DNA of 64,000 nucleotides from Phycisphaerae bacterium (GCA_035356615.1 DAOQSN010000030.1:167-64166); one strand, 5' to 3'; numbered from the stretch's first letter, positions 12,742-60,032 are shown. The notes: generated from the letters alone by a model not told the origin. Made by a program: numbers and translations.

Positions 12742-14393
12742 CAGGTCACCTTGATCTCATAGGGGATTTGCCGGAACACGATGCCCTCGCGTTTCAGGCG
12801 CGCCGCCCCCAGGCGACAGCTTTCACCGTAGATGACCCTCACCGTTACCTCTCCCTGGGAGGGAGACGCGTCGGGAAGCTCGCGGAGAACAGCCCCGGTA
12901 AGAACGTTCCCACCGTTCGGGCGTTTATCGCCCATCACGCCGTTGAACAACAAGTACACGGCCTTGCCGTTGTGAACTCCAAGCAGCGGCGAATACCCCC
13001 TCTCCCTCCCAGGGAGAGGGCTGGGGTGAGGGTCGGCGCCGTTGGCGCGCCGCGGCGTCCTCGGAATCGGCGCGCCGGTTTCGGTGAAGAACACATGCCC
13101 CGCCAGCTCGGGGAAGCGGACCGATTCGTGGATGTTGCCGCGCTCGTCAAACAGCGGCTCGCCCAGCTTGCAGTAGCGGAAGCCGCCGCCGCACGCGGGA
13201 ACCGCATCGCCCTTGCCTTCGACAACGCGTCGCAACCGCTGTGCCGCTACGCTTGCGGCGATGCTCTCGTCCATTTCGACCAGTACAAACCGTCGCTGTC
13301 CGCCGTCCGCTTTGTTCAGCGCTAGCACTGCGTGCCCCGTCGTAGCGCTCCCAGCGAACGAATCAAGCACAATCGAATCCCTGTCGGTCGCGATTTCGAG
13401 AATGCGTCGGATGAGGCGCGTGGGCTTGGGGGTATCGAAGGCGTTCTCGTCTCCCAGAAGCGCCACGACCTCCTTCTTGGCCTCTTGCGTGTGTCCGACC
13501 TCGTCGTTTGACCACCAAGTCCACACTGAGTTTCCGCCTGACTCGGACAGAAAGGTCTTTCGGCGCGGCATCGCATTGCCGTCCTTCCCGAACCAGATAC
13601 GCCCGTCCCGAACCAGTTCCAGGAACACAGATTCGACGTTCTTCCAGCAGACACCGGGAGGCGGTCGATACTCCTTTCCACCCGGGGTCCGAATCGTGTA
13701 CATCTGATTAGGGCGATATCCCTGTGCCGTGTAGTCCGAAGACACCCACGGCCCGCGCGGGTCATTGTCGGGATTCTTGAATTGCGCCGCCTGTTTTTTG
13801 CTTTTGGGTATCTTGCGAAACCTTACGGTGTCTGAGTTCTTCGCATAGAGGACTACGTAGTCATGTGCCGTGCTGAACGAGAGGCGCATGTCAGGCGACG
13901 TGCGTTTCTGCCAGACAGCGTTTGCCACGAAGTTGCGAACGCCGAATAGTTCGTCCATCATTCCCCGTAGGCCTTGCAGCTCAGTATCGTCGATGCTGAC
14001 GAAGAGGACCCCGTCTTCGGTCAGAAACTCCCGTAGCAGTGCAAGCCGCGGGTACATCATGCACAGCCACTTGTCGTGGCGCGACAGATCTTCGGCTTCG
14101 GCACCGACGACCTTCCCCAGCCAGTGCCGCATTTCCGGGCTGTTCACGGCATCGTTGTAGACCCACTTTTCATTCCCCGTGTTGTAGGGCGGGTCGATGT
14201 AGATGCACTTGACCTTGCCGGCGTAGTAGGGCAGCAGGGCCTTGAGCGCTTCCAGGTTGTCCCCCTGCACAAGCAGATTCCCGGCGTCCGGGCCGCCGGC
14301 CGACAGGCTCGCGTCACAGTGCAGCAGGCGGTACGGCACCTGCTTGTGGTGGTTCAGAACGGCTTTCTTGCCTATCCAGTCCAGCGTGGGCAT
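12741..14393 (-). CDS. mod: Type III site-specific DNA methyltransferase (Mod, beta-class)
   Basis: GDNLEALK, IYIDPPYNTG, FDTPKP, VLDSFAGSATTGHA; start MPTLDWIGK. Confidence 0.92.
   Translation of the reverse strand: MPTLDWIGKKAVLNHHKQVPYRLLHCDASLSAGGPDAGNLLVQGDNLEALKALLPYYAGKVKCIYIDPPYNTGNEKWVYNDAVNSPEMRHWLGKVVGAEAEDLSRHDKWLCMMYPRLALLREFLTEDGVLFVSIDDTELQGLRGMMDELFGVRNFVANAVWQKRTSPDMRLSFSTAHDYVVLYAKNSDTVRFRKIPKSKKQAAQFKNPDNDPRGPWVSSDYTAQGYRPNQMYTIRTPGGKEYRPPPGVCWKNVESVFLELVRDGRIWFGKDGNAMPRRKTFLSESGGNSVWTWWSNDEVGHTQEAKKEVVALLGDENAFDTPKPTRLIRRILEIATDRDSIVLDSFAGSATTGHAVLALNKADGGQRRFVLVEMDESIAASVAAQRLRRVVEGKGDAVPACGGGFRYCKLGEPLFDERGNIHESVRFPELAGHVFFTETGAPIPRTPRRANGADPHPSPLPGRERGYSPLLGVHNGKAVYLLFNGVMGDKRPNGGNVLTGAVLRELPDASPSQGEVTVRVIYGESCRLGAARLKREGIVFRQIPYEIKVT
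12848..12866 (+). repeat. Hairpin remnant of the CCCTCTCCC/GGGAGAGGG repeat inside mod
   Basis: cctctccctgggagggaga is the exact 19-nt reverse complement of 13001-13019. It encodes part of ASPSQGEV. Confidence 0.7.
12998..13032 (-). repeat. CCCTCACCC-n-CCCTCTCCC-loop-GGGAGAGGG palindromic element, in frame inside mod
   Basis: Minus strand ccctcaccccagccctctccctgggagggagaggg encodes PHPSPLPGRERG. Confidence 0.9.
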
Positions 14394-14529
14394 TCGCGGC
14401 CAGCCTCCGTCAGCACCCGGCGTCCGCACGGATTATGCCCGGCAGGGTCCCGCTGTAAAGTGGGAATCTCGGCAGGGGCGGCGTCTGGCAGGGAGCCGGC
14501 GCACGTGGACCCGTGCCAGCCGACGCACA

Positions 14530-14561
14530 GCATGCCCACGCTGCGCGAGGGCATGGCACCC
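14530..14561. repeat. Short partial copy of the GGGTGCCATGC family
   Basis: gcatgcccacgctgcgcgagggcatggcaccc resembles the termini of the 2846-2988 and 20154-20296 element. Confidence 0.6.
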
Positions 14562-14597
14562 AGCGGGGGCACCCGGCGCGGACTCGCAGACGGTGAT

Positions 14598-15593
14598 TCA
14601 GGTGTGCAGCTCCACGATGTCCTTGTCGTGCAGGATGTGATCAAGCTCGACGTTCTGGCCGTCGGCCACGCCGGAGCCCCAGAGGCGTGCGGCGCGCACG
14701 CGGTGCTCGTGGCCGTGGTACACCTTGCGGGCAAGCTCGTGCACGTTGCTGCCGGCCGGCAGGATGAAGGGGTCGGCAAGGTCGGGCTTCTTGCCCGGCG
14801 GCTTCGCGTAGATGCGGATGACACGCACCAGCTTGAAGAACAGCTCCGGCAGGCGGGCCATGCGCTCGGGGTCGCGCGTGGAGAGCGGCTCGATGCGCGC
14901 ACGCGTGCCGACGAGCTCCCGCAGCAACTCCAGGCGCTCGTCCGCGCCGGCCGCGTCGATCTTGTTGGCCAGCACCAGGCCGGGGACTTTCAACATCGCC
15001 CCCGGCTGGGCCGGATGCTCACGCGGACCGTCCGTCAGCTCGACGTTGCGCTCCGCCAGGTGATTGAGGCACGTCTCGACGTCCTCCAATACAGAGTTGC
15101 TGGCGAGGTCCGCCACTACCAGCAGGACGTCGGCCGACCGCCACAGGCCCGGAAAACCCGCGGGCACGTCGTCGGCCGTGACCGGCGGCGTGTCCACAAG
15201 CTGAATCTGCACGTCCTCGTAGTGGACCATGCCCGGCACCGGCAGGGCCGTGGCGAAGGGGTATTCCGTGATCTTCACGTGCGCGCTGGTCAGCCCGCCG
15301 ACGATGGACGATTTGCCGACGTTCGGCGTGCCGAGCAACACGACCTGCCCCGCGCCGCCCCTGGGGATGCTGAACGGGTTGGCCTGGCCGGGGCCCTTGC
15401 GCTCGACCTGCTGCAACGCCTTGCGCGCCGCGGAGAGCTTCTTCTTGAGGTCAGCCTGGAGCTTCTCCGACGACTTGTGCTTGGGCAGCTCGCGCCACAT
15501 CTCCTCCAGCGCGGCCAACTTCTCCTCGGGCGTGGTGGCCGCCCGGTACCTGGCCTCGGCCGCGAGGTACTGCGGTGTCAAGTTGGCGGCCAT
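14598..15593 (-). CDS. DRG/OBG-family GTPase with C-terminal TGS domain
   Basis: MAANLTPQY start, LEEMWRELPKHKSSEKL, G1 GTPNVGKSS, G3 DTPP, G4 NKID, TGS tail with GQNVELDHILHDKDIVELH. Confidence 0.9.
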   Translation of the reverse strand: MAANLTPQYLAAEARYRAATTPEEKLAALEEMWRELPKHKSSEKLQADLKKKLSAARKALQQVERKGPGQANPFSIPRGGAGQVVLLGTPNVGKSSIVGGLTSAHVKITEYPFATALPVPGMVHYEDVQIQLVDTPPVTADDVPAGFPGLWRSADVLLVVADLASNSVLEDVETCLNHLAERNVELTDGPREHPAQPGAMLKVPGLVLANKIDAAGADERLELLRELVGTRARIEPLSTRDPERMARLPELFFKLVRVIRIYAKPPGKKPDLADPFILPAGSNVHELARKVYHGHEHRVRAARLWGSGVADGQNVELDHILHDKDIVELHT

Positions 15594-15668
15594 CAGCGCA
15601 GCTCCCTTTCCGCACGCCACTGCTCACCTATGATGACAGATGTTCGCGGCGATCCCCGCCCTGAGCAA

Positions 15669-15752
15669 CCCCCCTCCCTCCCAGGGAGGGGTCCGGGAGG
15701 GTTGAACCACCGCGGCATTCCCCTCACCCTGCCCTCTCCACATACGGGCGGG
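15669..15752. repeat. Head-to-head doublet of the CCCTCACCC palindromic element (reverse copy + 18-nt spacer + forward copy), intergenic
   Basis: Spacer ttgaaccaccgcggcatt is 13/18 identical to the spacer tcaagccaacgcggcact of the doublet inside mnmE. Confidence 0.8.
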
Positions 15753-15783
15753 CAACCGCAAGGGCATGATAGCCCGTTTCCGC

Positions 15784-15812
15784 TTGAATCAGGCGGGCCG
15801 CATGGGTATGAT
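15784..15812 (+). promoter_or_regulatory. Sigma70-type promoter of the repeat-protein gene
   Basis: TTGAAT-17 nt-TATGAT. RBS AAGGAGAGG precedes GTG at 15885. Confidence 0.7.
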
Positions 15813-15884
15813 GGCAGCTTCAAGTCCGATAAATGGGAAATGTCAGTTCAGCAGGCGAGGGCCAGGCTTTACAAGGAGAGGACT

Positions 15885-18437
15885 GTGAGCGACAGCCGTA
15901 CAACGCATCGGAATCCGTCGTTGCGGGCGTGGGCCGGGGCGGTGAGTGTCATCATTCTGGCACTGGCGGGCGTCGTGCCAGTGGCGCTGGCCCAGGACTG
16001 CGACTGGTTGCCGGGCGAGGGCGTGCCGGGGACCGACGGCCCTGTATATGCCACCACTACGTGGGACCCCGATGGACCGGGGCCGCAGCCCGAGCTGCTT
16101 GTTATCGGTGGGCAGTTCACACTGGCGGGCGACGTTGTCGCAAACAACATCGCCGCGTGGGACGGCAGCACCTGGCAGCCGCTGGGGTCGGGGATGAATG
16201 CCAGTGTGCGCGCCCTGACGGTGCACGACGGTGAGTTGATCGCGGGGGGCTATTTCACAAGCGCCGGAGGTGTGACGTGCAACTACATCGCCCGCTGGAA
16301 CGGCAGCGCCTGGCAGCCGCTAGGGTCGGGGATGAGCGGCGGTGTGCGCGCCCTGACGGTGTACAACGGCGAGCTGGTTGCGGGGGGCGTTTTCACGACC
16401 GCCGGCGGCGTGCCGTGCAACCGCGTCGCCCGCTGGGACGGCACCATATGGCAGGCGCTGGGGTCGGGGATGGGCAGTTACGACCCAGGCGTGTACGCCC
16501 TGACGGTCTACAACGGCGAGCTGATCGCGGGGGGCTGGTTCACGACCGCCGGTGGCGTGACATGCAACTACATCGCTCGCTGGAACGGCGGCGTCTGGCA
16601 GCCGTTGGGGTCGGGGATGAACAACGCGGTGTACTCCCTGACCGTCTGCGACGGCCAACTGATCGCAGGGGGCGAGTTTTGGAGCGCTGGGGGCGTGCCG
16701 TGCAACCACATTGCCCGCTGGAACGGCAGTGCTTGGCAGTCGCTGGGGTCGGGGATGGGCAGCCCCTGGGTGTATGCCCTAGCGGTCTACAACGGGGAGC
16801 TCATTGCGGGGGGCAGTTTCACAAGTGCCGGCGGCGTGCTGTGCAACTTCATCGCCCGTTGGACCGGCAGCGCCTGGGAGCCGCTGGGGTCGGGGATGGG
16901 CGGCTTTGTGTACGCCCTGACGGTCTACGATGGCGAGCTGATCGCAGGGGGCGAGTTTACCATCGCCGGTGATATGCTCTGCAACTACATTGCCCGCTGG
17001 AACGGCAGCGCCTGGGAAGCTCTGGGGGCGGCGATAGGCGGTGCTTCCCCATCACCCGTGTACGCCCTTACGGTCTACGACGGCGAGCTGCTTGCGGGGG
17101 GCTCTTTCACGACCGCCGGTGGCGTGACATGCAACTATATCGCTCGCTGGAACGGCGGCGCCTGGCAGCCGCTGGGCAGTGGAATGGCCGGCGACTACTA
17201 TCCCTATGTTTACGCGCTTACGGTCTACAACGGCGAACTGATCGCGGGGGGCCGGTTCACGACCGCCGGCGGCGTCCCGTGCAACTGCATCGCCCGCTGG
17301 AACGGCAGCGCCTGGCAGCCGCTGGGGTCGGGAATTGGGTCCCAATTCTCAGTGGTGTACGCGCTCACCGTCTACAACGGCGAGCTGCTTGCGGGGGGCA
17401 GTTTCTGGACCGCCGGCGGCGTGTCGTGCAAGTGCATCGCCCGCTGGGACGGCAGCGCTTGGCAGCCGCTTGGGTCGGGGATGAACGCCAGCGTGTGCGC
17501 CCTGACGGTCTACAACGGCGAACTGATCGCGGGAGGCGCTTTCACGACCGCCGGCGGCGCGACGCGCGCATACATCGCCCGCTGGAATGGGAGCACTTGG
17601 CACCCTGTGGGGTCGGGGATGGGCGGCAACATCCCCGACGTGCTCGCCCTGACGGTCTACAACGGCGAGCTGATCGCGGGGGGCGCTTTCACGGCCGCCG
17701 GCGGCGTGCCGTGCAACCGCATCGCCCGCTGGAACAGCAGCGCCTGGCAGGCGCTGGGATCGGGGATGGACGACCGAGTGAACGCCCTAACGGTCTACAA
17801 TGGGGAGGTGATCGCGGGGGGCTGGTTCACGACCGCCGGCGGCGCGACATCCAACTACATAGCCCGCTGGGATGGCAGCGCCTGGCAGCCTCTGGGGTCC
17901 GGGATGAACAATAACGTGTACGCTCTGACGGCCTACAGCGGAGAGTTGATCGCGGGGGGCGCTTTCACGACCGCCGGCGGGTACATCTCGTACTACTGGG
18001 CCCGCTGGGCTTGCTTTGCCGACTGCGATCTCGACACCGATGGCGACGTTGATGAGGACGATTTCTGGATGTTTGTCGGCGCGTTCGGCACGTGCACAGG
18101 TGACACCGGCTTCCTGGCTGAGGCGGACTTCGACAGTGACGGGTGTGTCACGCTGACCGACTACGGGCAATGGCTGCAATGCTACATCGATGCCAACGGC
18201 CGGGAGTTCGGCGCCCCCCCTCCAGCGCCCGCCGAGCCAATCCTATTGCCCGTCGAACCCGTCCCGCCGCCCGGCGAACCGATTCCATCGCCCGCCGACC
18301 CCCTGCCACCGTCTGCCGAACCGACTCCCGTGGGCAGCGAGTCGGGTGCTCTGCTTGGCGAACCGACCACGCCGACCGTCGAACCGGCACCTTCCCGGCC
18401 GGTGAAAGCGGCAGCCCCGGTCTCGGCCGATCGGTAG
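15885..18437 (+). CDS. Secreted Trp/Gly-rich beta-propeller-type repeat protein (13 full + 1 partial repeats) with dockerin-like tag and Pro-rich tail
   Basis: GTG start after a strong RBS; signal peptide ending VALAQ. 46-50 aa repeats GELIAGGxFTxAGGVxCNxIARWNGSAWQPLGSGM(x)nVYALTVYN. C-terminal DCDLDTDGDVDEDDF...DFDSDGCVTLTDY. Confidence 0.9.
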   Translation: MSDSRTTHRNPSLRAWAGAVSVIILALAGVVPVALAQDCDWLPGEGVPGTDGPVYATTTWDPDGPGPQPELLVIGGQFTLAGDVVANNIAAWDGSTWQPLGSGMNASVRALTVHDGELIAGGYFTSAGGVTCNYIARWNGSAWQPLGSGMSGGVRALTVYNGELVAGGVFTTAGGVPCNRVARWDGTIWQALGSGMGSYDPGVYALTVYNGELIAGGWFTTAGGVTCNYIARWNGGVWQPLGSGMNNAVYSLTVCDGQLIAGGEFWSAGGVPCNHIARWNGSAWQSLGSGMGSPWVYALAVYNGELIAGGSFTSAGGVLCNFIARWTGSAWEPLGSGMGGFVYALTVYDGELIAGGEFTIAGDMLCNYIARWNGSAWEALGAAIGGASPSPVYALTVYDGELLAGGSFTTAGGVTCNYIARWNGGAWQPLGSGMAGDYYPYVYALTVYNGELIAGGRFTTAGGVPCNCIARWNGSAWQPLGSGIGSQFSVVYALTVYNGELLAGGSFWTAGGVSCKCIARWDGSAWQPLGSGMNASVCALTVYNGELIAGGAFTTAGGATRAYIARWNGSTWHPVGSGMGGNIPDVLALTVYNGELIAGGAFTAAGGVPCNRIARWNSSAWQALGSGMDDRVNALTVYNGEVIAGGWFTTAGGATSNYIARWDGSAWQPLGSGMNNNVYALTAYSGELIAGGAFTTAGGYISYYWARWACFADCDLDTDGDVDEDDFWMFVGAFGTCTGDTGFLAEADFDSDGCVTLTDYGQWLQCYIDANGREFGAPPPAPAEPILLPVEPVPPPGEPIPSPADPLPPSAEPTPVGSESGALLGEPTTPTVEPAPSRPVKAAAPVSADR

Positions 18438-18473
18438 GGTCTGTGGCGGCTGGCACAAGCGGGAACAGCGCTC

Positions 18474-18557
18474 GAATGCAGAATGAAGAAGTATGAATTC
18501 AGAAAGGGCTGCGCACGCCCTCTACTTTCTGAGTTCTTCATTCATCATTCTGCATTC
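18474..18557. repeat. GAATGCAGAATGA...TCATTCTGCATTC heptad-type inverted-repeat element, copy 1
   Basis: Perfect 13-bp terminal inverted repeats plus nested inner arms. Lies between convergent genes. Second copy at 56295-56368. Confidence 0.85.
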
Positions 18558-18616
18558 GCGGTCCGCAGGCTTGCGCCTGCGGCTCTGATGGCGCAGCGTT
18601 CGGCGGTCTCGGCCCC

Positions 18617-20110: not shown

Positions 20111-20153
20111 GACCCTACCTCCTCAGAGCCGTCCTCATGACCCCTCTCTCTTT

Positions 20154-20296
20154 GTATGTGTTTAGCGTCTTTGGCGTTGGGGGTGCCATGCTTTCCCGCG
20201 ACCGCGGTCGCGGGTAAGCATGCCTCTGCATGCCGCCGCACATGCCCACCCCCGCCTGCGGCGGGTGAGGGCATGGCACCCACGCTAAGCACATAC
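20154..20296 (-). repeat. ~143-bp GGGTGCCATGC-family element, copy 2
   Basis: Reverse-complement match to 2846-2988. Confidence 0.9.
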
Positions 20297-20328
20297 CTCC
20301 CCTCAGCAGAGAGGGCAGGGTGAGGGGG
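20296..20328 (-). repeat. Degenerate CCCTCACCC palindromic element
   Basis: Minus strand ccccctcaccctgccctctctgctgaggggagg. Confidence 0.7.
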
Positions 20329-20394
20329 CATCAGCACACTCTGACCGTCGGCGCCCTGCCCCAGCGCGGTCGAGTGCCACAACCAGTCCCGGCC

Positions 20395-20537
20395 GGGTGG
20401 CATGCCCAAGCCCGCCACCAGTGCACAGGGTGGCATGCCCAAGCCCGCCACCAGCGGGCGCCGGCATGCAGCCCCGTGAGAAGCGACGCCACACGCGCTC
20501 CTCCGGCATGGCGGCGCTGCGCTTGGCCATGCCACCC
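20395..20537. repeat. GGGTGGCATG(C/G)CCAAGC-family miniature inverted-repeat element with a 33-bp tandem duplication of one end
   Basis: gggtggcatgcccaagcccgccaccag occurs at 20395 and 20428. Other end: gcatggcggcgctgcgcttggccatgccaccc. Confidence 0.85.
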
Positions 20538-38212: not shown

Positions 38213-38255
38213 AACGTTCTCGTTCCAGCCCGTTCTCGCCTCCGCCACCCCCATG

Positions 38256-38280
38256 CCTACCCCTCCCCCGCGGGGAGAGG
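38256..38280 (+). repeat. Degenerate CCCTCACCC palindromic element
   Basis: cctacccctcccccgcggggagagg. Confidence 0.6.
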
Positions 38281-38300
38281 AGTGCACGCGCCGCCCGTGC

Positions 38301-40841: not shown

Positions 40842-40908
40842 GCGCACCGGAGACGGAGCGGACCCGGACCGGGGTGGACGCGGACTGGGGCAAACGCGCG
40901 GCAGGTGA

Positions 40909-40945
40909 CCCCCCTCCCTTCGAGGGAGAGGGGCGGGGGTGAGGG
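40909..40945 (-). repeat. CCCTCACCC palindromic element, intergenic
   Basis: Plus strand ccccctcccttcgagggagaggggcgggggtgaggg. Confidence 0.8.
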
Positions 40946-41129
40946 TCGAGGACACACGCGGCCGCAGACCTCGCGCAAGAGAGGCAAACCGCGCAGGCTC
41001 ACCCAGCCCGAGCGGGCGGCGTCCGCGTTCCTACAACTTCGCGCAGTCGGGCGCGGGCGCGGCGGGGGAGCGCCGGTATAATCGCGGGGGCTCGGGGAGC
41101 GCGGCAGCTCCCCCGGACGGACCGCGACC

Positions 41130-44304: not shown

Positions 44305-46929
44305 CTACGGGGCGGCCGGGAGTTGCGCGCGCAGGTCGTCGGCGTATGCCCGGCATGGCGGGGACGTGCTGATGGCGTCGGCGCCGAGTTCGAGCATTTG
44401 GCGTGCGATATCCACCTGCCCGCCGGCGAGCAGCAGACGGGCGGCCAGGCAGTACGTCCAGGGCAATTCAGGGCGCTGCTCCTGGGTGAAACCCAGGGCG
44501 AACAGCAATTGCCGGCGTGCTTCGGCGCCAGCGGGGCCGGTCGCGCACACGGCCTCGACGTGGGCAACGGCGTCGTCGTGGCGTCGTCCGCGCAGCGCCA
44601 CGAGGGCGAGCGTGCCGTGGGCGAGCGGCGCGGCAACGACCTCACTCAGCAGGGCGTTGGCGGCCTGGACGGCGGGGGCAGGCAGCCCGGCCAAGGCCTG
44701 GGACCAAGCCAGGTACGCGCGGGCCTCTACGCAGCCGGGGAAACGCGTCAACACGTCCGCCCACAACGCCACGCAGGGCTCGAATCGGCCATTCTCGAGG
44801 AAAGCAGCGTGATAGATGAGCGCCCGGTTGAGGGCGGCCGTCACGGCTTGCGGATCGCGCCGGAGCGCTTCTTCGTAGACGGCAAGGGCGTCGGCGGTGC
44901 GACCCAGGGTCTGATAGGCCACGCCGAGGTTGACGCGAGCGGCCGAGTGTTCCGGCATCCAGTCAAGCAGGCGTTCGAGGCGATCAGCGGCTGCTTGCGC
45001 TGCTGCGGTCGTACCGAGCCCCAGGTCCAACTCCGCGAGACCGAGGCTGGCGGGCACCTCGTAGGGGTTGCTTTGCAGTGCCTGTTCGTAGACGGCGCGG
45101 GCGTCGGCGAGGCGACCGACGCGGCGGTACAGGTCGGCAAGGCGAATGAGCACGGGGTTGTTGGTGGGCGCGAGCGTGACGGCGGTTTCGTACAGAGGCA
45201 GGGCCTCGGCGATCCGCCCGGCTTCCTCAAAAAAGTGGGCCAGGCGGTAGTACGCCAGCGGGTTGCGCGGGTCCGTGTCGAGCGCCTGGGTAAGAGCCGC
45301 CTCGGCCTCGGCCAGGCGACCGCGGCGCCATTCCGCCAGGCCGACGAGTTGATAGACCTTGCCCTCGAGAATGACGTCGGCGCGAGGCAGCTCCCGCCGG
45401 GCCAAGTCGATCGCCTGGACGTAGTACTGCTCCGCGCCCGCGGCATCGCCGGCGGTCTCGGCCGCCTTGCCCGCGTTGTAGTACGCCCAAGCCATGCGCT
45501 CGTATACCTGCGGCAGGTCGGGGTTGAGCTGCGCGATGCGCGTGGTCTTCAGAATGGCGCTGTCGTAGAACGAGCCGACGTGCCAGCTTGTGAGCAGAGC
45601 CGCAACGAGCAGGGCGAGACCGGCCACGCGCGGCACGAAGCGGCGTGCGGTCGAAGCGGCATGCTCGAACCAGCGTGCGTGGGCAGCGCGGAGCATGACG
45701 GCCGAGGCCCATAACAGACCGATAATCGGCAAGTACATGTAGCGATCGGCGGCCAGGATGTTCCGCGCGGGGACGATGGGCAGCGTCGCGGCGATGGCCG
45801 CGCAGAACCAGAGCACGCCCAAACGGACCCCGAGCCACCTCCAAGCCGCCCAGGTCAACCCGATGGCCGCGGGAACGAGCACCAGCAGCGTCGGCGTCGT
45901 GAGCAGGTCCGCCCAGTACACCACCGGCGGGGCGTGGTACCAGGCGGCCAAGCCGCGGGGCCAGACGAAGTGCTGCACGTACCACGCCAGGGAAAGCAGC
46001 ACGCGGACGACGCGAGGCCCGTGGAGGTGCTCGGCTCCGCCGGCAAACATCTCCGCCTCGGCCGTGGACCAGATGTTGACGACGGCGAAGGCACCCGTCA
46101 CCGCGGCATACACCGCCCACGCCAGCCAGAGACGGCGGGTGGACCTCGGCATGCCCGGTAGAGACCCTCTCCCCCCTGGGGGAGAGGGCAGCGTGAGGGG
46201 GGATGCCACTGCGGTCCCGCCCTCCGTCGGACGCTTCCCGGCAGGAAGGCCGAGCAGGTCGCGAATTCTCAGCCCGCGTGCCAGGGGCACCATCAGCAGG
46301 AGCACCGGCAACTCGACGCGGACTTTGCTGGCACCGCATGCTAGGACGAACAGCAGCGTCAGCCCCGCCCAGCGCCAACCGCCATGTTCCAGGAACCGAG
46401 CCCACGTCAACAGCGCTGCGACCGCGAACAGCGTCGACATGAGCATCATGCGGCCGTTGATCCAGGCGACTACTTCGACCTGCAAGGGGTGCAGAGCGAA
46501 GAGCAAACCGCCGATCAGGGCAACACGCTCATCTCGACTGAGGCAACGCAACAGGCGCCAGACCAGGACGGCGTTGGCAGCATGGAGCAGGATGTTGGTC
46601 AGGTGAAACAGCCACGCTCCGGATTGCGGGTCGCGGGGGTCGAAGAGGTCCAGGCGGTAGGCCAGCCAGAACTCGCCGGAGAAGCTCAGCAGCGGCAGCG
46701 GCTGGTACAGGTCGCGGTGAACGATCTTGAACAGCGCCAGGGCGTGCGACCAGGACGGGTGGTTGACCAGCACGTGGTTGAGGGCGAGTTGGTAGTCGTC
46801 CCCGCCGACGAAGCCGCCGCCGATGGTGGGCAACCCCATCGCCAGAGCGGCCAGGCCCACGACCAGGCCCGCAGGGCGCAGAAAGCGCGGAGGAGTGCAG
46901 GCGTTACGTTTTGGCGTTACACCGGTCAT
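44305..46929 (-). CDS. TMTC-like membrane protein (GT-C-type protein O-mannosyltransferase family N-terminus) with C-terminal TPR repeats
   Basis: GGDDYQ, YQPLPLLSF, FHLTNILLHAAN, FALHPLQVEVVAWINGR, AADRYMYLP, followed by multiple TPRs. Confidence 0.85.
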   Translation of the reverse strand: MTGVTPKRNACTPPRFLRPAGLVVGLAALAMGLPTIGGGFVGGDDYQLALNHVLVNHPSWSHALALFKIVHRDLYQPLPLLSFSGEFWLAYRLDLFDPRDPQSGAWLFHLTNILLHAANAVLVWRLLRCLSRDERVALIGGLLFALHPLQVEVVAWINGRMMLMSTLFAVAALLTWARFLEHGGWRWAGLTLLFVLACGASKVRVELPVLLLMVPLARGLRIRDLLGLPAGKRPTEGGTAVASPLTLPSPPGGRGSLPGMPRSTRRLWLAWAVYAAVTGAFAVVNIWSTAEAEMFAGGAEHLHGPRVVRVLLSLAWYVQHFVWPRGLAAWYHAPPVVYWADLLTTPTLLVLVPAAIGLTWAAWRWLGVRLGVLWFCAAIAATLPIVPARNILAADRYMYLPIIGLLWASAVMLRAAHARWFEHAASTARRFVPRVAGLALLVAALLTSWHVGSFYDSAILKTTRIAQLNPDLPQVYERMAWAYYNAGKAAETAGDAAGAEQYYVQAIDLARRELPRADVILEGKVYQLVGLAEWRRGRLAEAEAALTQALDTDPRNPLAYYRLAHFFEEAGRIAEALPLYETAVTLAPTNNPVLIRLADLYRRVGRLADARAVYEQALQSNPYEVPASLGLAELDLGLGTTAAAQAAADRLERLLDWMPEHSAARVNLGVAYQTLGRTADALAVYEEALRRDPQAVTAALNRALIYHAAFLENGRFEPCVALWADVLTRFPGCVEARAYLAWSQALAGLPAPAVQAANALLSEVVAAPLAHGTLALVALRGRRHDDAVAHVEAVCATGPAGAEARRQLLFALGFTQEQRPELPWTYCLAARLLLAGGQVDIARQMLELGADAISTSPPCRAYADDLRAQLPAAP
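46165..46202 (-). repeat. CCCTCACCC palindromic element, in frame inside the TMTC-like gene
   Basis: Minus strand ccccctcacgctgccctctcccccaggggggagaggg encodes PLTLPSPPGGRG; 10-11 bp stem. Confidence 0.88.
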
Positions 46930-52584: not shown

Positions 52585-53032
52585 GAGGCGTCTACCCGGC
52601 CCCGGTCCCCAAGGATCGCAGGTCTACCGCTGCTATCGTCGCGGGTGCGCGGTGACTTAATCGGCGCGCGGGGCGGCCGCGCGTCCGTTTTCACCGTCCC
52701 GCCCAGCGTCCAAGCGGTCTTCGTTCTTCGCAGACCATGGTGGGCCAGACCCGATATCAGCGCCCCTTCTCGGACGCCGCCGGGCCCTACGATCCTGTAA
52801 CGAAGTGACACGACGGTGACACTTAGGGTGCGTCCGTCGGCGGACGGCGCGCCTGCCGAGAACGCCAAGCGACGCGGTTGCCCACCGGTGGAACCAGGAC
52901 GGGTCTGAGAAGCAGGGGATGCATTCACGAAGGTGGGCCTTCCCGCGGACGAGACGCCCAGTACGCGTCGGGCGTCCTCCGCGTGGCGGGCGAGCACGTT
53001 CGTACCCCACCGGAGTGCCTTCGCCTGCGCCG

Positions 53033-53066
53033 CCCTCACCCCTGCCCCTCTCCCGGGGGAGAGGGG
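53033..53066 (+). repeat. CCCTCACCC palindromic element, intergenic
   Basis: ccctcacccctgcccctctcccgggggagagggg. Confidence 0.9.
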
Positions 53067-53098
53067 TCGCGCGTCGTCTGCCTGAGCCGGCCCGCGGG

Positions 53099-53368
53099 TC
53101 AGCCCAGCGGTCGGGCGAGCAGTTGGCGGCGGCAGGCGTCGCAGAGGTCGAAGCGCAGGCAGCGGTAGGTCTGGTCCTCCACCTCGTCGGGGTTGGCGCG
53201 GGCGAGCTGCTCGATGACTTCCTTGAGTGCGGCGTCGGCATCGACCGTCTGTTCGGGGTCGAGTTCGATGTGACCGGCGGCGGCGTAGACCTCGATCTTG
53301 ACGATGAAGCGGCGCGGGTCGTTCGCGTGGAGGGGGGCGCCGCACTTGTCACATTCATAGCGGATCAT
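53099..53368 (-). CDS. Small hypothetical protein with two CxxC motifs (putative Zn-binding)
   Basis: CDKC near the N-terminus, CDAC near the C-terminus; ATGA overlap with the trpD stop. Confidence 0.8.
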   Translation of the reverse strand: MIRYECDKCGAPLHANDPRRFIVKIEVYAAAGHIELDPEQTVDADAALKEVIEQLARANPDEVEDQTYRCLRFDLCDACRRQLLARPLG

Positions 53369-54390: not shown

Positions 54391-54690
54391 GACGACGCCT
54401 GGTTCGCTGAGTGCAGTTGTTGTCGGGGCGCATGCACGCTCGTCATCAGTTCCCCAGGTCCAAAGGACCTGGGCCACCCCATCGTCCCCGGGTCCGAAGG
54501 AGTAGGGCCGCGGCGCGGGGCCGCGTGCTCCCTGGCGCAGATCGGATAGTATCGTAGGCAGCCGGAGAAGTCTCCGGCCGCCTTCGTGCGTCGGCTGGGG
54601 TGAGCGCGGAGGGCGTGGTGTTTCTGCCCAGTGGCTGTGGCGCGGGGTTTCCGCCCCGCGAACGCGGTGCGACGGGGCCGACGGTGTCGC

Positions 54691-56247
54691 ATGCTGGATC
54701 GGCTGGATGAGACCATTGTGGCGGTTTCGTCCGCGCCGGGGCGCGGGGCGCTGGGGATCGTCCGCGTAAGTGGGTCGCAGGCGCTGAGCATCGCGGACCG
54801 AGTCGCCAAAGTGGGGACGCCGCTGGCGTCGCAACGGGGGTGGACCCGCGTGGCGGGCGAAGTGAGGGTATCGGACGAGGTGAGCACCCCTGACGCCACC
54901 CCGCTCCCTTTCAGGGAGGAGTTGGGAGAGGGTCAAGCCAACGCGGCACTCCCCCTCACCCTGCCCTTTCCCCCAAGGGGGAGAGGGGTTTCGTCAGACG
55001 CCCCAAGGGGCAGAGAGGTTCCGTCAGGCGCCCTAAGCGTGCCGGCGTGGTTCTACGTGTTTCGCCGACCACACAGTTACACACGTGACGACCTGGTGGA
55101 GGTGCACACGCTCGGCTCGCCGGTGGTGCTGGAGATGGTCCGGCAACGCCTGCTGACGGCCGGGGCGGTGGCGGCCGAGCCCGGCGAGTTCACCGCGCGG
55201 GCGTTCCTCGCGGGCGGGATGGACCTGACGCAGGCGGAGGCGGTCGCCGGCATCATTCGCGCGCAAACGGATACCCAGTTACGGGCGGCCCGGCGCCTGA
55301 TGGACGGTGCGCTAGCGGCGCCGATCGTGGCCGCCAGTGAGCAGCTTACCGAGTTGACCGCGCTGGTGGAGGCCCAGATCGACTTCTCCGAGGAGCCGAT
55401 CGAGTTCATCACGCCGATCCAACTGCGGACGCGGCTGACGGAACTGGCGGGGCAATTGCGTCGGTTGCGCACGGAGGGGCTGTCCGCCGAACGGTTGCAG
55501 GAACTGCCGCACGTGCTGCTGCTGGGATCACCGAACGTCGGCAAGAGCACGCTGCTCAACGCGCTAAGCGGCACGCCACGGGCGATCTGTGCGGCCGCCG
55601 CGGGCACGACGCGCGACATTCTGTCGGTGCCGGTGCGTCTGGGGGCGGGGGAGGCGATGTTGCTGGACGCGGCCGGCCTGGACCAGACGGTCGATGAGGT
55701 GCTCGCGCAGGCCCGCGTGCTGACGCTGGCGGCCGCGGCGCGCGTGGACCTGATCTGCCTGGTAGCCGACGCCGGCGCGCCGGGGGGTGCCCTGGGCGAC
55801 GTGGTGGAGCACGTGCGTGCCCTGGAGTCTCCGCGCGTGGTCATCGCCGCGAACAAGTGTGATCTGCTCGGTCCGGCCGAGCAGGCACGGCGGGTGCGGG
55901 AGTTGGCCGAGCTTCGCCTGGGGGCGGTGTGTCCCGTGAGCGCGTTGACGCAGGCGGGCCTGGTGGCGCTACGCGAGGAGCTTGCGGGGGTCTTGTACGG
56001 TCCGCGCGGGGCCGGGCTAACCGTGGAACGGGAGGCGCTGGTGCTGAGCGGACGGCATCGGGAGGCGCTGGACGAGGCGGTGGACGCTCTCGTTCGGGCC
56101 ATCGAGCTGAGCCGGGCGACCGACGCCGCGGAGCTGGTGGCGTTCGAGCTGCGTACCGCGCTGAACGCCCTGGGTCAGATCACCGGCGCCGTGGCCACGG
56201 AAGACCTGCTGAGCCTGGTGTTCTCGCGCTTCTGCATCGGAAAGTGA
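54691..56247 (+). CDS. mnmE: tRNA modification GTPase MnmE with a ~50-aa repeat-derived insertion
   Basis: TIVAVSSAPGRGALGIVRVSG, PHSYTRDDLVEVH, GEFTARAF..G.MDLTQAEAV, GSPNVGKS, GTTRD, NKCD, C-terminal FSRFCIGK. Confidence 0.95.
   Translation: MLDRLDETIVAVSSAPGRGALGIVRVSGSQALSIADRVAKVGTPLASQRGWTRVAGEVRVSDEVSTPDATPLPFREELGEGQANAALPLTLPFPPRGRGVSSDAPRGREVPSGALSVPAWFYVFRRPHSYTRDDLVEVHTLGSPVVLEMVRQRLLTAGAVAAEPGEFTARAFLAGGMDLTQAEAVAGIIRAQTDTQLRAARRLMDGALAAPIVAASEQLTELTALVEAQIDFSEEPIEFITPIQLRTRLTELAGQLRRLRTEGLSAERLQELPHVLLLGSPNVGKSTLLNALSGTPRAICAAAAGTTRDILSVPVRLGAGEAMLLDAAGLDQTVDEVLAQARVLTLAAAARVDLICLVADAGAPGGALGDVVEHVRALESPRVVIAANKCDLLGPAEQARRVRELAELRLGAVCPVSALTQAGLVALREELAGVLYGPRGAGLTVEREALVLSGRHREALDEAVDALVRAIELSRATDAAELVAFELRTALNALGQITGAVATEDLLSLVFSRFCIGK
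54887..55033. repeat. Composite palindromic insert (doublet of the CCCTCACCC element + short tandem tail), in frame inside mnmE
   Basis: Reverse copy 54901-54932, 18-nt spacer, forward copy 54951-54988. Bounded by cctgacg / cgtcagg inverted repeats. Confidence 0.88.
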
Positions 56248-56294
56248 TCAATTCGGCCGGCGGCGCTGTCGTGGTTTGCAACACCGCGAGTGCG

Positions 56295-56368
56295 GAATGC
56301 AGAATGAAAAAGGCAGAATTCAGAAAGGAACTTCGGAGGTCCGTCTCCCCTTTCTGCATTCTGCATTC
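56295..56368. repeat. GAATGCAGAATGA heptad-type inverted-repeat element, copy 2
   Basis: gaatgcagaatgaaaaaggcagaattcagaaagg ... cctttctgcattctgcattc; between convergent genes. Confidence 0.85.
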
Positions 56369-56401
56369 ATGGCCTGCGGGGCGGCGCGTGCGGTGCCACC
56401 G

Positions 56402-58060: not shown

Positions 58061-59994
58061 GCGGAAACCTCCGCCGCTTCGAGGCGTGCCAGGGCGTTAT
58101 TGAGGATCTCTCGCACCTGGGCGGCCCCGTCGCGCACGCCGCTGACGAACTGAAGGTCGCGTGCGATCTGCCGTTTGGCGCGGGCGGGCTCATCAACTTC
58201 GTCGGCGGCCAGGCGCCGGTCCGCCGAGAAGCGCCGCAACTCGATCATCTGGGTGGCGGAGTTGATGATGTGGTAGGCCCGCGTCGATTGCTGCACCTTG
58301 CTCCGTAGTTCGTCCACGCGGACGAGGCGGCGGTTGAAACGCGCCGGGTCGGTGATGAGCCCCTCCAGCTCGTGCAGCAAGTCCATGAATTCGGTGCACA
58401 ACTTGCTCATCTCGTCCAGCTCGCTCAAACGCTCCCGCAGTTGCCCGGCCGCCGGCACCCGGCGGCTGTCGTCATGCCAGCGCGTCTGCGCGCGATAGGC
58501 GAAACGGGCGGGATCGAGCGGCTCCCGGGCGCAGCGGTCCAGCGCCTCCCGCAGCGTCATCGGCTGCGTGCCGCGAATGGCCGCCCCGCCTTCGGTGGCG
58601 TTGATGACCGTCTGCGGCATCCCCGCGATGTCCTTCTCGAACTGCTCGAGGTAGGTCAGCAGCAGTTCGTCGGTGTAGACGGTGCCGCCTGCCGCGGCGG
58701 GCACCGTCCGCAGGATGGGCCGGTTGCGCGCGATGCGCTCCCATTCCTTCATCTCGATGGTCTGGAAGCGGTTCAGCTCGCCGCGCCACGCCCGGTGGAT
58801 TTCCACGCCGGGGACGTAGAAGACGTGCCCGGTGAAGGCCAGGTCCTGCCCCACCATAATGATCGGGTTGCAGCCCATGTACTGGGCGACATACAGGGCC
58901 AGGTGCGCCACGGTTGCCCCCGCCCGCAGCCCGCCGCGGTTCCCGAGTTCCTCACCCAACAGCAGCGTGGCCCAGCCGCTGTGCAGCAGCGAGATGGGGC
59001 CGGGGTAGTGATCGAGCACGTGCCAGGTCGCCTTCGGCTCGGCCACCAGGTGCACGGCCTCCAGCCCTTCGACACCCTCTAAGAACTTGCGCGACATCTC
59101 GTGGAAATCGAGGCTGGTGACGAAGTCGGGGACGATGCCGCGCTGCATGAGGGGCTTGAGGGCGGTCTGCACGGCGATGAGCACGGCCCGGCCCTTCGCT
59201 TCCGCCAGCAGGTCAAGATTGCGCGCCAGCGACGGCCCGGCCGAGATGAGGATGCCCGGCACCCCCGCGAACCGGTCCTTAAGCACGTCGATCGGCGGCG
59301 TGCTCACGTAGGTCCGCAGGTTCATGGCGATGTTCCGGCAGGTGATCTGGGCATTGCTCACCAGCGTCAACAGCGACATGCGGGCGTAAGTGACGTATTC
59401 CGCGATCAAGCGCTGGAACGCCTGCTGGGCTTCCCCGGCCACCTGCATCGACGGCGGATGCGCCACGAACCGGGCACCGAGCATAATCAGCGTGTTGTAG
59501 GCGTGCAGACGCTCGTGCAGGCGGGCCTTGTCATGGTCCACCAGGATCACGAGACGCTTCGAGGCGATCACTTCGGCCAGGTCCACGCAGGCGAAGGCCG
59601 TTGCCAGCAGCCGCACGCTGGGTTCCGTGCACAGGATGAACGCATCACCCCGCAGCCGCCGGAACAGCGCCCGCACGTGGTAGCCCAGCCCGAAGCCGCT
59701 GACCACGAAGCAGAACTTCTCCTCGAGCGGGACCTTCGCTACCAGCCGCTGGGCCTCGAGCTCCGGATCATGCCGGCTGTGCAGGTACACGCTTTGCCCG
59801 GCGGGCGTCGGAAGCTGCACGGTCCAGGCGCCGCTGCGCGTCGGCTCGACGGGCAGGCGCTCGTCGTCCGCGACGGCATCGACCCGCAATGCAAGCTCCG
59901 GATCAACCGCCCAGAGCGCGCGCAGGTTATGCACGAACATCGCGTTGCCGACGGCCGGCGCGGCCGAGGTTGTCACTTCAGCAGACTCCGGCAT
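58051..59994 (-). CDS. Motility-associated-factor (Maf)/DUF115 (MptE-like) family protein, putative glycosyltransferase
   Basis: YLHSRHDP, ISAGPSL, PDFVTSLD, GATVAHLALYVAQYMGCNPIIMVGQDLAF, INATEGGAAI. 10-nt overlap with the downstream gene. Confidence 0.85.
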   Translation of the reverse strand: MPESAEVTTSAAPAVGNAMFVHNLRALWAVDPELALRVDAVADDERLPVEPTRSGAWTVQLPTPAGQSVYLHSRHDPELEAQRLVAKVPLEEKFCFVVSGFGLGYHVRALFRRLRGDAFILCTEPSVRLLATAFACVDLAEVIASKRLVILVDHDKARLHERLHAYNTLIMLGARFVAHPPSMQVAGEAQQAFQRLIAEYVTYARMSLLTLVSNAQITCRNIAMNLRTYVSTPPIDVLKDRFAGVPGILISAGPSLARNLDLLAEAKGRAVLIAVQTALKPLMQRGIVPDFVTSLDFHEMSRKFLEGVEGLEAVHLVAEPKATWHVLDHYPGPISLLHSGWATLLLGEELGNRGGLRAGATVAHLALYVAQYMGCNPIIMVGQDLAFTGHVFYVPGVEIHRAWRGELNRFQTIEMKEWERIARNRPILRTVPAAAGGTVYTDELLLTYLEQFEKDIAGMPQTVINATEGGAAIRGTQPMTLREALDRCAREPLDPARFAYRAQTRWHDDSRRVPAAGQLRERLSELDEMSKLCTEFMDLLHELEGLITDPARFNRRLVRVDELRSKVQQSTRAYHIINSATQMIELRRFSADRRLAADEVDEPARAKRQIARDLQFVSGVRDGAAQVREILNNALARLEAAEVSACR

Positions 59995-59997
59995 CCG

Positions 59998-60032
59998 CCC
60001 TCACCCCTACCCCTCTCCCAGGAGGAGAGGGG
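59998..60032 (+). repeat. CCCTCACCC palindromic element filling the aat-maf intergenic gap
   Basis: ccctcacccctacccctctcccaggaggagagggg; ends 3 nt upstream of the maf ATG on the minus strand. Confidence 0.9.

What the first reader, a model, noticed from the sequence alone, without database searches (positions are those of the whole stretch)
12848..60032. A palindromic repeat family colonises protein-coding sequence in frame (RPE-like behaviour)
Seen: the element CCCTCACCC-n-CCCTCTCCC-loop-GGGAGAGGG occurs free between genes at 15669-15752, 20296-20328, 38256-38280, 40909-40945, 53033-53066 and 59998-60032. It also occurs inside three unrelated ORFs without breaking frame: mod (twice), the TMTC-like gene and mnmE. 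It is read in different frames and on both strands, giving PHPSPLPGRERG, PLTLPSPPGGRG, PLTLPFPPRGRG and PLPFREELGEG. Established: Rickettsia palindromic elements are the precedent for repeats that add peptide segments to proteins. Inference: four intragenic insertions in 64 kb suggest this lineage tolerates such inserts genome-wide. No mobilising enzyme (RAYT/TnpA/endonuclease) is visible in the window.
Basis: partly seen in the sequence, partly recalled or inferred. Interest (0 to 1): 0.85.

Follow-up and report, generated by a model that had tools for sequence, protein, structure and literature searches.

The report
BoxC-type repeats read through inside genes
A small GC-rich palindromic repeat, the same "BoxC / triplex-motif" repeat long known between genes in E. 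coli, has about 340 copies in this sludge bacterium. Dozens of them sit in frame inside working genes such as mnmE, dnaE and uvrA, where they are read as floppy extra loops.

Summary
The ~35-nt unit CCCTCACCC-n-CCCCTCTCCC-loop-GGGAGAGGGG occurs 11-12 times in the window and about 340 times in the 5.0-Mb genome.

It is not a new family. It is the BoxC / PIT / TMECO "intrastrand triplex motif" (PMC4666352; also described as a G-quadruplex/hairpin switch, PMC5100583). I found its exact core in more than 20 bacterial phyla.

What is unusual here:
- **Copy number.** It is higher than any count given in print.
- **Location.** In E. coli every copy is intergenic. Here 57 copies (32 by a strict test) lie inside 25-34 open genes.

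Alignments show that the segments in mod (two), the PMT_2-TPR gene and mnmE are lineage-specific insertions absent from relatives. The mnmE insert is modelled as a disordered loop.

Two points need correcting:
- **Stop-free reading.** It is explained by GC content and is not a special adaptation.
- **Candidate enzyme.** A candidate partner enzyme exists elsewhere in the genome. It is a DUF559 (Vsr-like) nuclease gene bracketed by inverted copies of the repeat (contig C35), and this layout recurs across phyla. That the nuclease moves the repeat is inferred, not shown. A relative with 55 copies has no such gene.

The parts
12741..14393 (-). Type III-like DNA methyltransferase gene (mod), host of two repeat units
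   Evidence: Pfam N6_N4_Mtase, E=1e-35. Homologues up to 80% identical.
12993..13058 (-). Repeat unit plus flank inserted in frame in mod (adds TPRRANGADPHPSPLPG, 51 nt net)
   Evidence: HMM hit 12993-13037, E=3e-8. Gap of 17 aa in all 15 homologues. DNA alignment with L161 and L163.
12835..12873 (+). Degenerate complete unit in mod (…ASPSQGEVTV…), net +18 nt
   Evidence: HMM E=1e-4. DNA alignment shows the unit TCTCCCTCCCAGGGAGAGGTAACGGTGAGGG, which L161 and L163 lack.
15666..15752 (.). Intergenic head-to-head doublet (B-type half + A-type half)
   Evidence: Intergenic by coding signal.
20297..20331 (-). Intergenic single unit
   Evidence: HMM E=0.008. Sequence.
38242..38285 (+). Intergenic degenerate unit
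   Evidence: HMM E=0.018.
40906..40953 (-). Intergenic unit about 65 nt after the stop of the gene at 39318-40841
   Evidence: HMM E=1.6e-8.
44305..46860 (-). PMT_2/TPR membrane glycosyltransferase-like gene ('TMTC-like'), host
   Evidence: TPR families. Orthologues in 25 of 31 relatives.
46138..46260 (-). 41-aa in-frame insert DLLGLPAGKRPTEGGTAVASPLTLPSPPGGRGSLPGMPRST holding one unit (46165-46207)
   Evidence: Absent from 11 relatives' orthologues. HMM E=4e-7.
53026..53069 (+). Intergenic unit
   Evidence: HMM E=9e-8.
54691..56247 (+). mnmE (tRNA modification GTPase), single copy in the genome, host
   Evidence: Pfam TrmE_N split in two stretches, plus MnmE_helical and MMR_HSR1. The only other G000 matches are distant GTPases and short repeat-derived stretches.
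54877..55026 (+). ~50-aa in-frame insert in the MnmE N-domain. It contains an inverted doublet (54894-54936 and 54944-54994) bounded by CTGACG/CGTCAG.
   Evidence: Absent from 15 relatives. AlphaFold residues 63-112 have pLDDT<50 and no secondary structure, between well-modelled strands. The DNA folds as one long hairpin, -26.5 kcal/mol, z=-3.1.
59990..60038 (+). Intergenic unit in the 61-nt gap between two same-strand genes
   Evidence: HMM E=2.5e-10.

Best explanation
**What the repeat is.** It is a Planctomycetota variant of the BoxC / PIT / TMECO 'G/C-rich intrastrand triplex motif'. It has one C-rich 9-mer and two G-rich 9-mers, which can fold as a hairpin, a triplex or a G-quadruplex.

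**Forms in this genome.**
- Singlets embedded in ~110-nt composite units.
- ~105-nt head-to-head doublets with outer inverted ends CCTGACA…TGTCAGG.
- One gene-carrying form, in which two inverted units bracket a DUF559 (Vsr-like PD-(D/E)XK) nuclease gene.

**Shown.**
- The family has amplified to about 340 copies, and 77% of them are intergenic.
- Copies inside genes are real insertions that relatives lack.
- They keep the host frame open, occur in both orientations and in all five usable frames, and are as well preserved as intergenic copies.
- In MnmE the insert sits in a hairpin turn that is modelled as disordered.

**Inferred.**
- Copies land more or less anywhere.
- Selection removes those that shift the frame, bring a stop or hit structured parts.
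- Because the unit is short and GC-rich, about a quarter of genic hits would stay open. The survivors are read as Pro/Gly/Arg/Glu-rich loops of 12-50 residues.
- The DUF559 nuclease is the likely partner that cuts at or near the repeat and so drives copying by break repair. Its activity on the repeat is untested.
For: **Identity**
- The published TMECO pattern CCCTCNCCC-N3-6-GGGNGAGGG-N3-GGGNGAGGG and its inverted heterotypic pairs (PMC4666352) match the units here.
- The exact core is found in enterobacteria, Pseudomonas, cyanobacteria, Chloroflexota and others.

**Abundance and location**
- 337 HMM hits: 259 intergenic, 57 inside genes, 21 at gene edges. The crude gene caller puts 80% of the genome in genes (binomial p=1e-136).

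**Insertions**
-.

**Real host genes**
- Pfam domains lie on both sides of the copy, or are split by it.

**Frames and preservation**
- Frame use is 15/10/9/9/3. Bit scores are 37.8 in genes against 36.3 between genes, p=0.24.

**Disordered loop**
-.

**Same behaviour elsewhere**
- Mfd, LigA, YgiQ, PMT_2, a transketolase-like protein and MetRS in other phyla.

**DUF559 link**
- G000 C35 cassette.
- 5 of 120 random repeat loci from other phyla have DUF559 abutting the repeat.
- At least 12 of 30 Planctomycetota DUF559 loci carry the repeat within ~60 nt, and at least 8 have it on both sides in the same layout.
- A whole cassette is read in frame in a 1272-aa ORF of relative G019 and in Variovorax MetRS.
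Against: - No RNA or peptide data exist for this organism, so translation of the inserts is inferred from open frames and from the hosts being single-copy or essential genes.
- No insert-free variant contig was seen in three sludge metagenomes, so there is no direct sign of recent movement.
- No target-site duplication could be read, because the nearest empty sites are only 80% identical.
- Co-occurrence with DUF559 is imperfect. Relative G040 has 55 exact copies and G008 has 16, and neither has a DUF559 hit. G001 has DUF559 and no exact copy.
- My gene calls are crude. One 'in-gene' call in the window was wrong, so 57 is an upper figure and 32 is the safer one.
- Only 12 copies fit the strict published TMECO pattern (second loop exactly 3 nt). 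183 fit when that loop may be 2-4 nt.
Confidence: 0.78

Rival explanations
1. The repeats are REP/REPIN elements moved by a RAYT (Y1 tyrosine transposase).
For: Inverted doublets that fold into one long hairpin resemble REPINs. The genome has six Y1_Tnp matches.
Against: None of the six Y1_Tnp genes is flanked by this repeat. The nearest copies are 0.7-1.4 kb away and on one side only. The gene found between inverted copies, here and in other phyla, is DUF559.
Confidence: 0.07
2. The units are host-selected structural or regulatory DNA/RNA motifs (triplex, G-quadruplex/hairpin switch, protein-binding site) and not selfish insertions. On this view genic copies are kept for a function such as pausing.
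For: The core sequence is conserved across phyla. Published in-vitro work shows triplex and G4/hairpin folding (PMC4666352, PMC5100583). Genic copies are as intact as intergenic ones.
Against: Published tests found no promoter or terminator activity and no triplex in vivo. Copy number varies from 0 to 160 among relatives. Genic copies occur in either orientation and in five frames, in unrelated proteins. Orthologues work without them.
Confidence: 0.08
3. The 'host genes' are broken or mis-assembled: pseudogenes, chimeric MAG joins at repeats, or inserts that are spliced out.
For: The genome is a 76-contig metagenome assembly, and repeats are classic mis-join sites. No expression data are available.
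Against: Both flanks of each insert continue the same orthologous protein in frame. Logan's contigs from three sludge runs of 2016 carry the mnmE insert at 100% identity, though these runs may include the source sample. The hosts include the only mnmE copy and DnaE. The units have no intein or intron features.
Confidence: 0.04

Closest known systems
BoxC / PIT elements / TMECO intrastrand triplex motif of E. coli and other Proteobacteria (Holder et al. 2015, PMC4666352); the same units as HPG1/HPG2 G-quadruplex-hairpin motifs (Kaplan et al. 2016, PMC5100583)
   Same: The same three 9-nt blocks (CCCTCNCCC, GGGNGAGGG, GGGNGAGGG). The same hairpin with an extra third block. Dispersed in both orientations. 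Frequent inverted pairs made of two different half-types. No transposase nearby.
   Different: In E. coli all copies are intergenic, whereas here 10-17% are inside open genes. The copy number here (about 340 by HMM, 160-183 by pattern) exceeds the published maximum of 143. The second loop is 2 or 4 nt instead of 3. The host phylum is Planctomycetota, while the published survey lists Proteobacteria.
Rickettsia palindromic elements (RPE; Ogata et al. 2000, as summarised in PMC10969869)
   Same: A short palindromic repeat inserted in frame in many unrelated housekeeping genes (44 in R. conorii, 32-57 here). It adds peptide segments at places compatible with the fold.
   Different: An unrelated sequence family in a GC-rich, free-living host. 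The units are shorter (35-110 nt against ~100-150). The element is pan-bacterial and not genus-restricted. A candidate partner nuclease is identifiable.
REP/REPIN-RAYT systems
   Same: Small palindromes, inverted doublets forming long hairpins, and one gene-carrying copy bracketed by the repeats amid many gene-less copies.
   Different: The bracketed gene is a PD-(D/E)XK DUF559 nuclease, not a HUH Y1 transposase. REPs are classically extragenic.
DUF559 nuclease cassettes bounded by BoxC-type repeats
   Same: The G000 C35 locus has exactly that layout. Whole cassettes are read in frame in host genes of other genomes.
   Different: This finding concerns the gene-less derivatives and the scale of their in-frame colonisation of one genome.

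Membership tests
G/C-rich intrastrand triplex motif (BoxC / PIT / TM class, ITxF definition: three blocks of 8-15 nt, loops 1-6 nt, at most one mismatch) | Three consecutive blocks: one C-rich 9-mer and two G-rich 9-mers (CCCTCNCCC … GGGNGAGGG … GGGNGAGGG) | tested here: met
   160 exact matches to CCCTCACCC-N2-4-CCCTCTCCC-N2-8-GGGAGAGGG. 183 matches to the N-tolerant three-block pattern.
G/C-rich intrastrand triplex motif (BoxC / PIT / TM class, ITxF definition: three blocks of 8-15 nt, loops 1-6 nt, at most one mismatch) | Many dispersed copies on both strands, far above chance | tested here: met
   337 HMM hits. 74 forward and 86 reverse against 0 for the reversed control.
G/C-rich intrastrand triplex motif (BoxC / PIT / TM class, ITxF definition: three blocks of 8-15 nt, loops 1-6 nt, at most one mismatch) | Inverted pairs that join two different half-types | tested here: met
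   30 head-to-head doublets with a ~20-nt spacer. 15 are clearly heterotypic (A+B) and 5 are A+A. My A/B types are defined by block sequence, not by the loop as in the paper.
G/C-rich intrastrand triplex motif (BoxC / PIT / TM class, ITxF definition: three blocks of 8-15 nt, loops 1-6 nt, at most one mismatch) | Folds into an intrastrand triplex (or G4/hairpin) in vitro | not testable with these tools
   Only the hairpin could be computed: -13.8 kcal/mol, z=-2.4.
TMECO in the strict sense (published E. coli pattern) | Second loop of exactly 3 nt and first loop of 3-6 nt | tested here: not met
   Only 12 copies fit. Most have a second loop of 2 nt (…GGGCAGGGTGAGGG) or 4 nt (…GGGGTAGGGGTGAGGG). 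I therefore file it as a variant of the class, not as TMECO proper.
TMECO in the strict sense (published E. coli pattern) | Exclusively intergenic location (a description, for E. coli K-12) | tested here: not met
   32-57 copies lie inside open genes.
Rickettsia palindromic elements (RPE) | Sequence membership in RPE-1 to RPE-10 | not tested
   No RPE sequences were compared. Composition and length differ, from my own knowledge. The claim is 'works like', not 'is'.
Rickettsia palindromic elements (RPE) | In-frame insertion in many unrelated protein genes, absent from orthologues | tested here: met
Rickettsia palindromic elements (RPE) | Inserts lie at sites compatible with the protein fold | tested here: met
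   In MnmE the insert is a pLDDT<50 loop between two well-modelled strands. In the PMT_2-TPR gene it falls between hydrophobic stretches where relatives have only a short connecting segment. Only these two were examined.
REP/REPIN-RAYT | A Y1 (HUH) transposase gene flanked by the repeats | tested here: not met
   Six PF01797 matches, none flanked.
REP/REPIN-RAYT | Inverted doublets forming a long hairpin | tested here: met
MITE | Terminal inverted repeats | tested here: met
   Doublets end in CCTGACAnnA … TnnTGTCAGG.
MITE | Target-site duplication | tested here: inconclusive
   The nearest empty site is 80% identical, so the boundaries are ambiguous.
DUF559 cassette bounded by BoxC-type repeats (unpublished, scan-internal) | DUF559 ORF directly bracketed by inverted units, recurring in unrelated genomes | tested here: met
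   G000 C35:55346-55817. Other phyla. Planctomycetota loci. G019.
DUF559 cassette bounded by BoxC-type repeats (unpublished, scan-internal) | The nuclease recognises or cuts the repeat | not testable with these tools
   Needs biochemistry.

The most novel reading that the evidence does not exclude
BoxC-type repeats together with DUF559 nucleases may form one pan-bacterial class of nuclease-driven selfish element that can live inside coding sequence. On this reading its gene-less derivatives persist as translated disordered loops. Even the whole nuclease gene can be carried as an in-frame domain of a host protein (MetRS in a Variovorax MAG, a 1272-aa ORF in relative G019). The host's own expression would then make the nuclease. 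This would be a non-splicing counterpart of inteins and a second, much broader RPE-like system.
Probability: 0.35. Interest if true: 0.85.

Novelty: new variant of a known kind. Interest (0 to 1): 0.66.

Why it matters
BoxC/PIT/TMECO repeats have been known since the 1990s, and no origin, partner enzyme or function has been established. Both papers read here state that none lies within an ORF in E. coli.

- **Scale.** This genome shows the same repeat colonising coding sequence on the scale of the Rickettsia RPEs (32-57 copies against 44). The hosts include essential replication, repair and tRNA/rRNA-modification enzymes. In-frame survival of selfish palindromes is therefore not a peculiarity of reduced intracellular genomes.
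- **Protein evolution.** The inserts form a natural catalogue of permissive loops in conserved enzymes, and a source of new disordered segments.
- **Testable enzyme question.** The repeat-bracketed DUF559 gene in the same genome gives a concrete way to test which enzyme acts on these repeats.

Tried and rejected
- **Rfam.** No family matches anywhere in the window.
- **CRISPR-like arrays.** Regular spacing at C1:405514-405820 (period 68) and C3:154851-155309 (period 213) looked array-like. The 'spacers' repeat too, so these are plain tandem duplications.
- **RAYT.** Six Y1_Tnp matches, none flanked by the repeat.
- **Adapted stop-free design.** Rejected. Copies have 4.61 open frames of 6 and random windows of equal length have 4.77.
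- **Older, decaying genic copies.** Rejected. HMM scores do not differ from those of intergenic copies.
- **Presence/absence polymorphism in reads.** Three sludge DNA runs hold the mnmE insert unchanged, and they are held only as contigs. No RNA run was found.
- **Target-site duplication at the mod insert.** Not resolvable.
- **My own gene caller.** It wrongly placed the 15669-15752 doublet in a gene. I therefore added the two-sided coding test and Pfam checks.
- **Literature.** A search for DUF559 found no paper linking it to these repeats.


Full report
**1. Observation**

The window is C30:167-64166 of a 5.03-Mb, 76-contig, 67% GC assembly. Three activated-sludge metagenomes hold the mnmE region. 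The best mod homologues come from Phycisphaerae and other Planctomycetota MAGs.

Reading the listed sites shows one unit: CCCTCACCC – 2-4 nt – CCCCTCTCCC – loop of 3-6 nt – GGGAGAGGGG. The core hairpin pattern occurs 3 times in the window against 0 in 100 shuffles.

A regex that allows mismatches finds 317 copies in the genome. A nucleotide HMM built from them gives 337 non-overlapping hits at E≤0.01, and 11-12 of these are in the window. The exact three-block pattern occurs 160 times against 0 for the reversed control.

**2. Anatomy**

The unit has two direct C-rich blocks and one inverted G-rich block. The G strand reads GGGAGAGGGG-TA-GGGGTGAGGG, which is four G tracts. Units occur in three settings:

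- **Singlets in a composite.** They sit in a ~110-nt composite with conserved flanks (…GGGCGTCnTCGCCTCCGCCr | unit | GGTCCAGACGCCGCA…).
- **Head-to-head doublets.** About 30 exist, with a ~20-nt spacer. They mostly join an 'A' half (GGGAGAGGG/GGGTGAGGG) to a 'B' half (GGGAGGGG/GGGGGAGGG) and end in CCTGACAnnA…TnnTGTCAGG. The mnmE doublet folds as one long hairpin (-26.5 kcal/mol, z=-3.1).
- **Local tandem arrays.** These are plain tandem duplications.

**3. Identity**

A full-text search for the 9-mers led to Holder et al. 2015 (PMC4666352) and Kaplan et al. 2016 (PMC5100583).

- **Holder et al.** Their 'TMECO' pattern is CCCTCNCCC-N3-6-GGGNGAGGG-N3-GGGNGAGGG. It is the same element as BoxC and the PIT elements. 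They found 3610 copies in 262 proteobacterial genomes, at most 143 per genome. All 23 E. coli K-12 copies are intergenic. Five inverted pairs always join type A to type B. The motif forms a triplex in vitro but not detectably in vivo. It has no promoter or terminator activity and no link to known mobile elements.
- **Kaplan et al.** They describe the same units as a G-quadruplex/hairpin switch, 'none within' ORFs.

The units here share the three blocks but have a second loop of 2 or 4 nt. Only 12 copies fit the strict pattern, and 183 fit with a 2-4-nt loop.

A scan of one genome per species found the exact core in Enterobacteriaceae, Pseudomonas, Acinetobacter, Rhizobiales, Burkholderiales, Myxococcota, Chloroflexota, Cyanobacteria, Verrucomicrobiota, Acidobacteriota, Nitrospirota, Omnitrophota and others. 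The cores are identical across phyla and the flanks differ.

Among 40 relatives the count is patchy. G000 has 160, G040 has 55, G008 has 16, G019 has 7, G033 has 6, and G034 and G026 have 1 each. The remaining 34 have none.

**4. Are the genic copies real insertions?**

- **mnmE.** Pfam splits the TrmE_N domain in two. In an alignment with 15 relatives of the same family and order, G000 alone has about 50 extra residues between strands …GEVRV and VPAWFYVF…. An AlphaFold model built on a 9-sequence alignment gives pLDDT<50 and no secondary structure for residues 63-112. The strands on either side are modelled well, with block means of 75 to 89. Apart from distant GTPases and short repeat-derived stretches, mnmE has no other match in the genome.
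- **mod.** Fifteen homologues, the closest 80% identical, lack a 17-aa segment holding PHPSPLPG. The DNA alignment with two fetched homologue contigs shows a net 51-nt insert that is essentially the unit plus its usual flank. It also shows a second, degenerate but complete unit with a net +18 nt.
- **PMT_2-TPR gene.** A 41-aa segment is absent from 11 relatives. Paralogues in this genome carry units in the neighbouring loop in the other orientation, so this protein family was hit more than once.

**5. Genome-wide census**

I wrote a crude codon-usage gene caller (3314 genes, 80% of the genome). It places 259 copies between genes, 57 inside 34 genes and 21 at gene edges. This is a strong depletion from coding sequence (p=1e-136).

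The caller errs at times. In the window it put the 15669-15752 doublet in a shadow ORF. I therefore also required coding signal in the host frame on both sides, which leaves 32 copies in 25 genes.

Pfam confirms real hosts, with domains on both sides of the copy or split by it:

- DnaE (3 copies), UvrA, RsmG/GidB and a MiaB-like radical-SAM enzyme.
- A Ser/Thr kinase (the kinase domain is split), a PLD-type enzyme and an SSF symporter.
- A GlcD/F-like oxidase and an MMPL protein.
- An AroD-AroE-AroK fusion (4 copies).
- Several PMT_2-TPR paralogues.

Both orientations are used (28 same, 29 opposite), as are all five usable frames (15, 10, 9, 9, 3). Genic copies score like intergenic ones (median 37.8 against 36.3 bits, p=0.24). 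The stop-free property is not special: copies have 4.61 open frames of 6, and random windows of equal length have 4.77.

A rough calculation follows; it is inference. Genic density is about 14 copies per Mb and intergenic density about 259 per Mb, so about 5% of genic hits survive. About 26% of hits would be frame-keeping and stop-free, which means roughly one in five of those is tolerated.

**6. Not only this lineage**

Among the 120 loci fetched from other phyla, the exact unit lies in frame in these genes:

- Mfd (a MAG labelled Bordetella).
- LigA, where the adenylation domain is split (Planctomycetota).
- YgiQ-type radical SAM, inside the N-domain (Polaromonas).
- A PMT_2 protein (Chloroflexota).
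- A transketolase-like protein (Nitrospirae).
- A molybdo-oxidoreductase/cytochrome c protein (Variovorax).
- MetRS (Variovorax MAG).

**7. A candidate enzyme**

In that MetRS, two inverted units bracket an in-frame DUF559 (Vsr-like) domain. G000 has one full-length DUF559 gene, at C35:55430-55747 (E=9e-35). A reverse unit ends 4 nt before its ATG, and a forward unit follows the domain. Further doublets lie on both sides. This is the doublet layout with the spacer replaced by the gene.

- **From repeat to gene.** I searched the 868 kb of random repeat loci from other phyla with tblastn. DUF559 abuts the unit in Acinetobacter, Shinella, a Sphingomonadaceae genome, a Beijerinckiaceae MAG (both sides) and Variovorax (both sides).
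- **From gene to repeat.** Of 30 DUF559 loci from 150 Planctomycetota genomes, at least 12 have the unit within ~60 nt. At least 8 have it on both sides in the same reverse…forward layout.
- **In a relative.** In G019 the whole cassette, with two units on each side, is read in frame in a 1272-aa ORF.

No paper in the library links DUF559 to these repeats. After I reached this link, I found that earlier notes of this scan make the same claim on other genomes.

Some evidence counts against a strict dependence. G040 (55 copies) and G008 (16 copies) have no DUF559 hit, and G001 has DUF559 but no exact copy. RAYT is not the partner: six Y1_Tnp matches exist and none is flanked.

**8. What is not shown**

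- There are no RNA or peptide data.
- The three sludge DNA runs carry the mnmE insert unchanged, and they are held only as contigs.
- No target duplication could be read.
- Nuclease activity on the repeat is untested.

**9. Verdict**

The repeat family itself is already known. What is new is its behaviour here: in-frame colonisation of dozens of genes, in a new phylum and at record copy number. The genome also holds a repeat-bracketed DUF559 gene as a plausible but unproven driver.

Noticed in passing
G000 C35:55179-56049 (outside the window): A DUF559 nuclease gene is directly bracketed by inverted units, with further doublets on both sides. It is the only repeat-associated DUF559 gene in this genome. 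The other two matches (C3:137453, the C-terminus of a helicase; C1:90789) have no units nearby.
   Followed up: yes
L028 1307-1794 (Variovorax MAG) and L214 1400-1889 (relative G019): Whole DUF559 cassettes with their flanking units are read in frame inside host genes. One host is MetRS, between the catalytic body and the tRNA-binding domain. The other is a 1272-aa ORF of unknown family.
   Followed up: partly
G000 C24:37058-39661: A single 867-aa ORF joins type I dehydroquinase, shikimate dehydrogenase and shikimate kinase and carries four units. Two interrupt the dehydrogenase NAD-binding region, and one lies in the linker before the kinase. The units may have helped to fuse neighbouring genes.
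   Followed up: no
G000 C24:72996-77690: A 1564-aa open frame holds a second N6_N4 methyltransferase domain, a 54-aa Y1_Tnp fragment and three units. It may be a decayed R-M gene read through into junk.
   Followed up: no
G000 C1:405514-405820 and C3:154851-155309: Tandem arrays of five 68-nt units and three 213-nt units, each holding one repeat unit. The spacers repeat too, so these are local duplications and not CRISPR arrays.
   Followed up: yes
Relative G040 (same order, other family): It has 55 exact units, almost all with the spacer CCGT or CCGG, but no DUF559 match at E≤1e-10 in a 98%-complete genome. This suggests either a burst followed by loss of the nuclease, or a different driver.
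   Followed up: partly
window 14076-18437 (+) against 14598-15620 (-): A 1453-aa + strand ORF is partly a shadow. Its first 500 codons overlap a - strand gene that holds the coding signal. The real + strand beta-propeller (DUF5122) gene probably starts near 15833.
   Followed up: yes
window 54951-54990, laid on sludge metagenome contigs: Summed contig depth over the unit reaches about 1400 against about 14 for the flanks, and about 75 other contigs match it. The unit is therefore abundant across this sludge community.
   Followed up: no
G000 paralogues C21:17232-19676, C9:56423-58726, C5:157841-160288, C31:41267-43297: Several PMT_2-TPR paralogues carry units in the same loop after the PMT_2 domain. 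The window's copy has its unit one loop further on and in the other orientation. This points to repeated hits on one protein family or a preferred target.
   Followed up: partly
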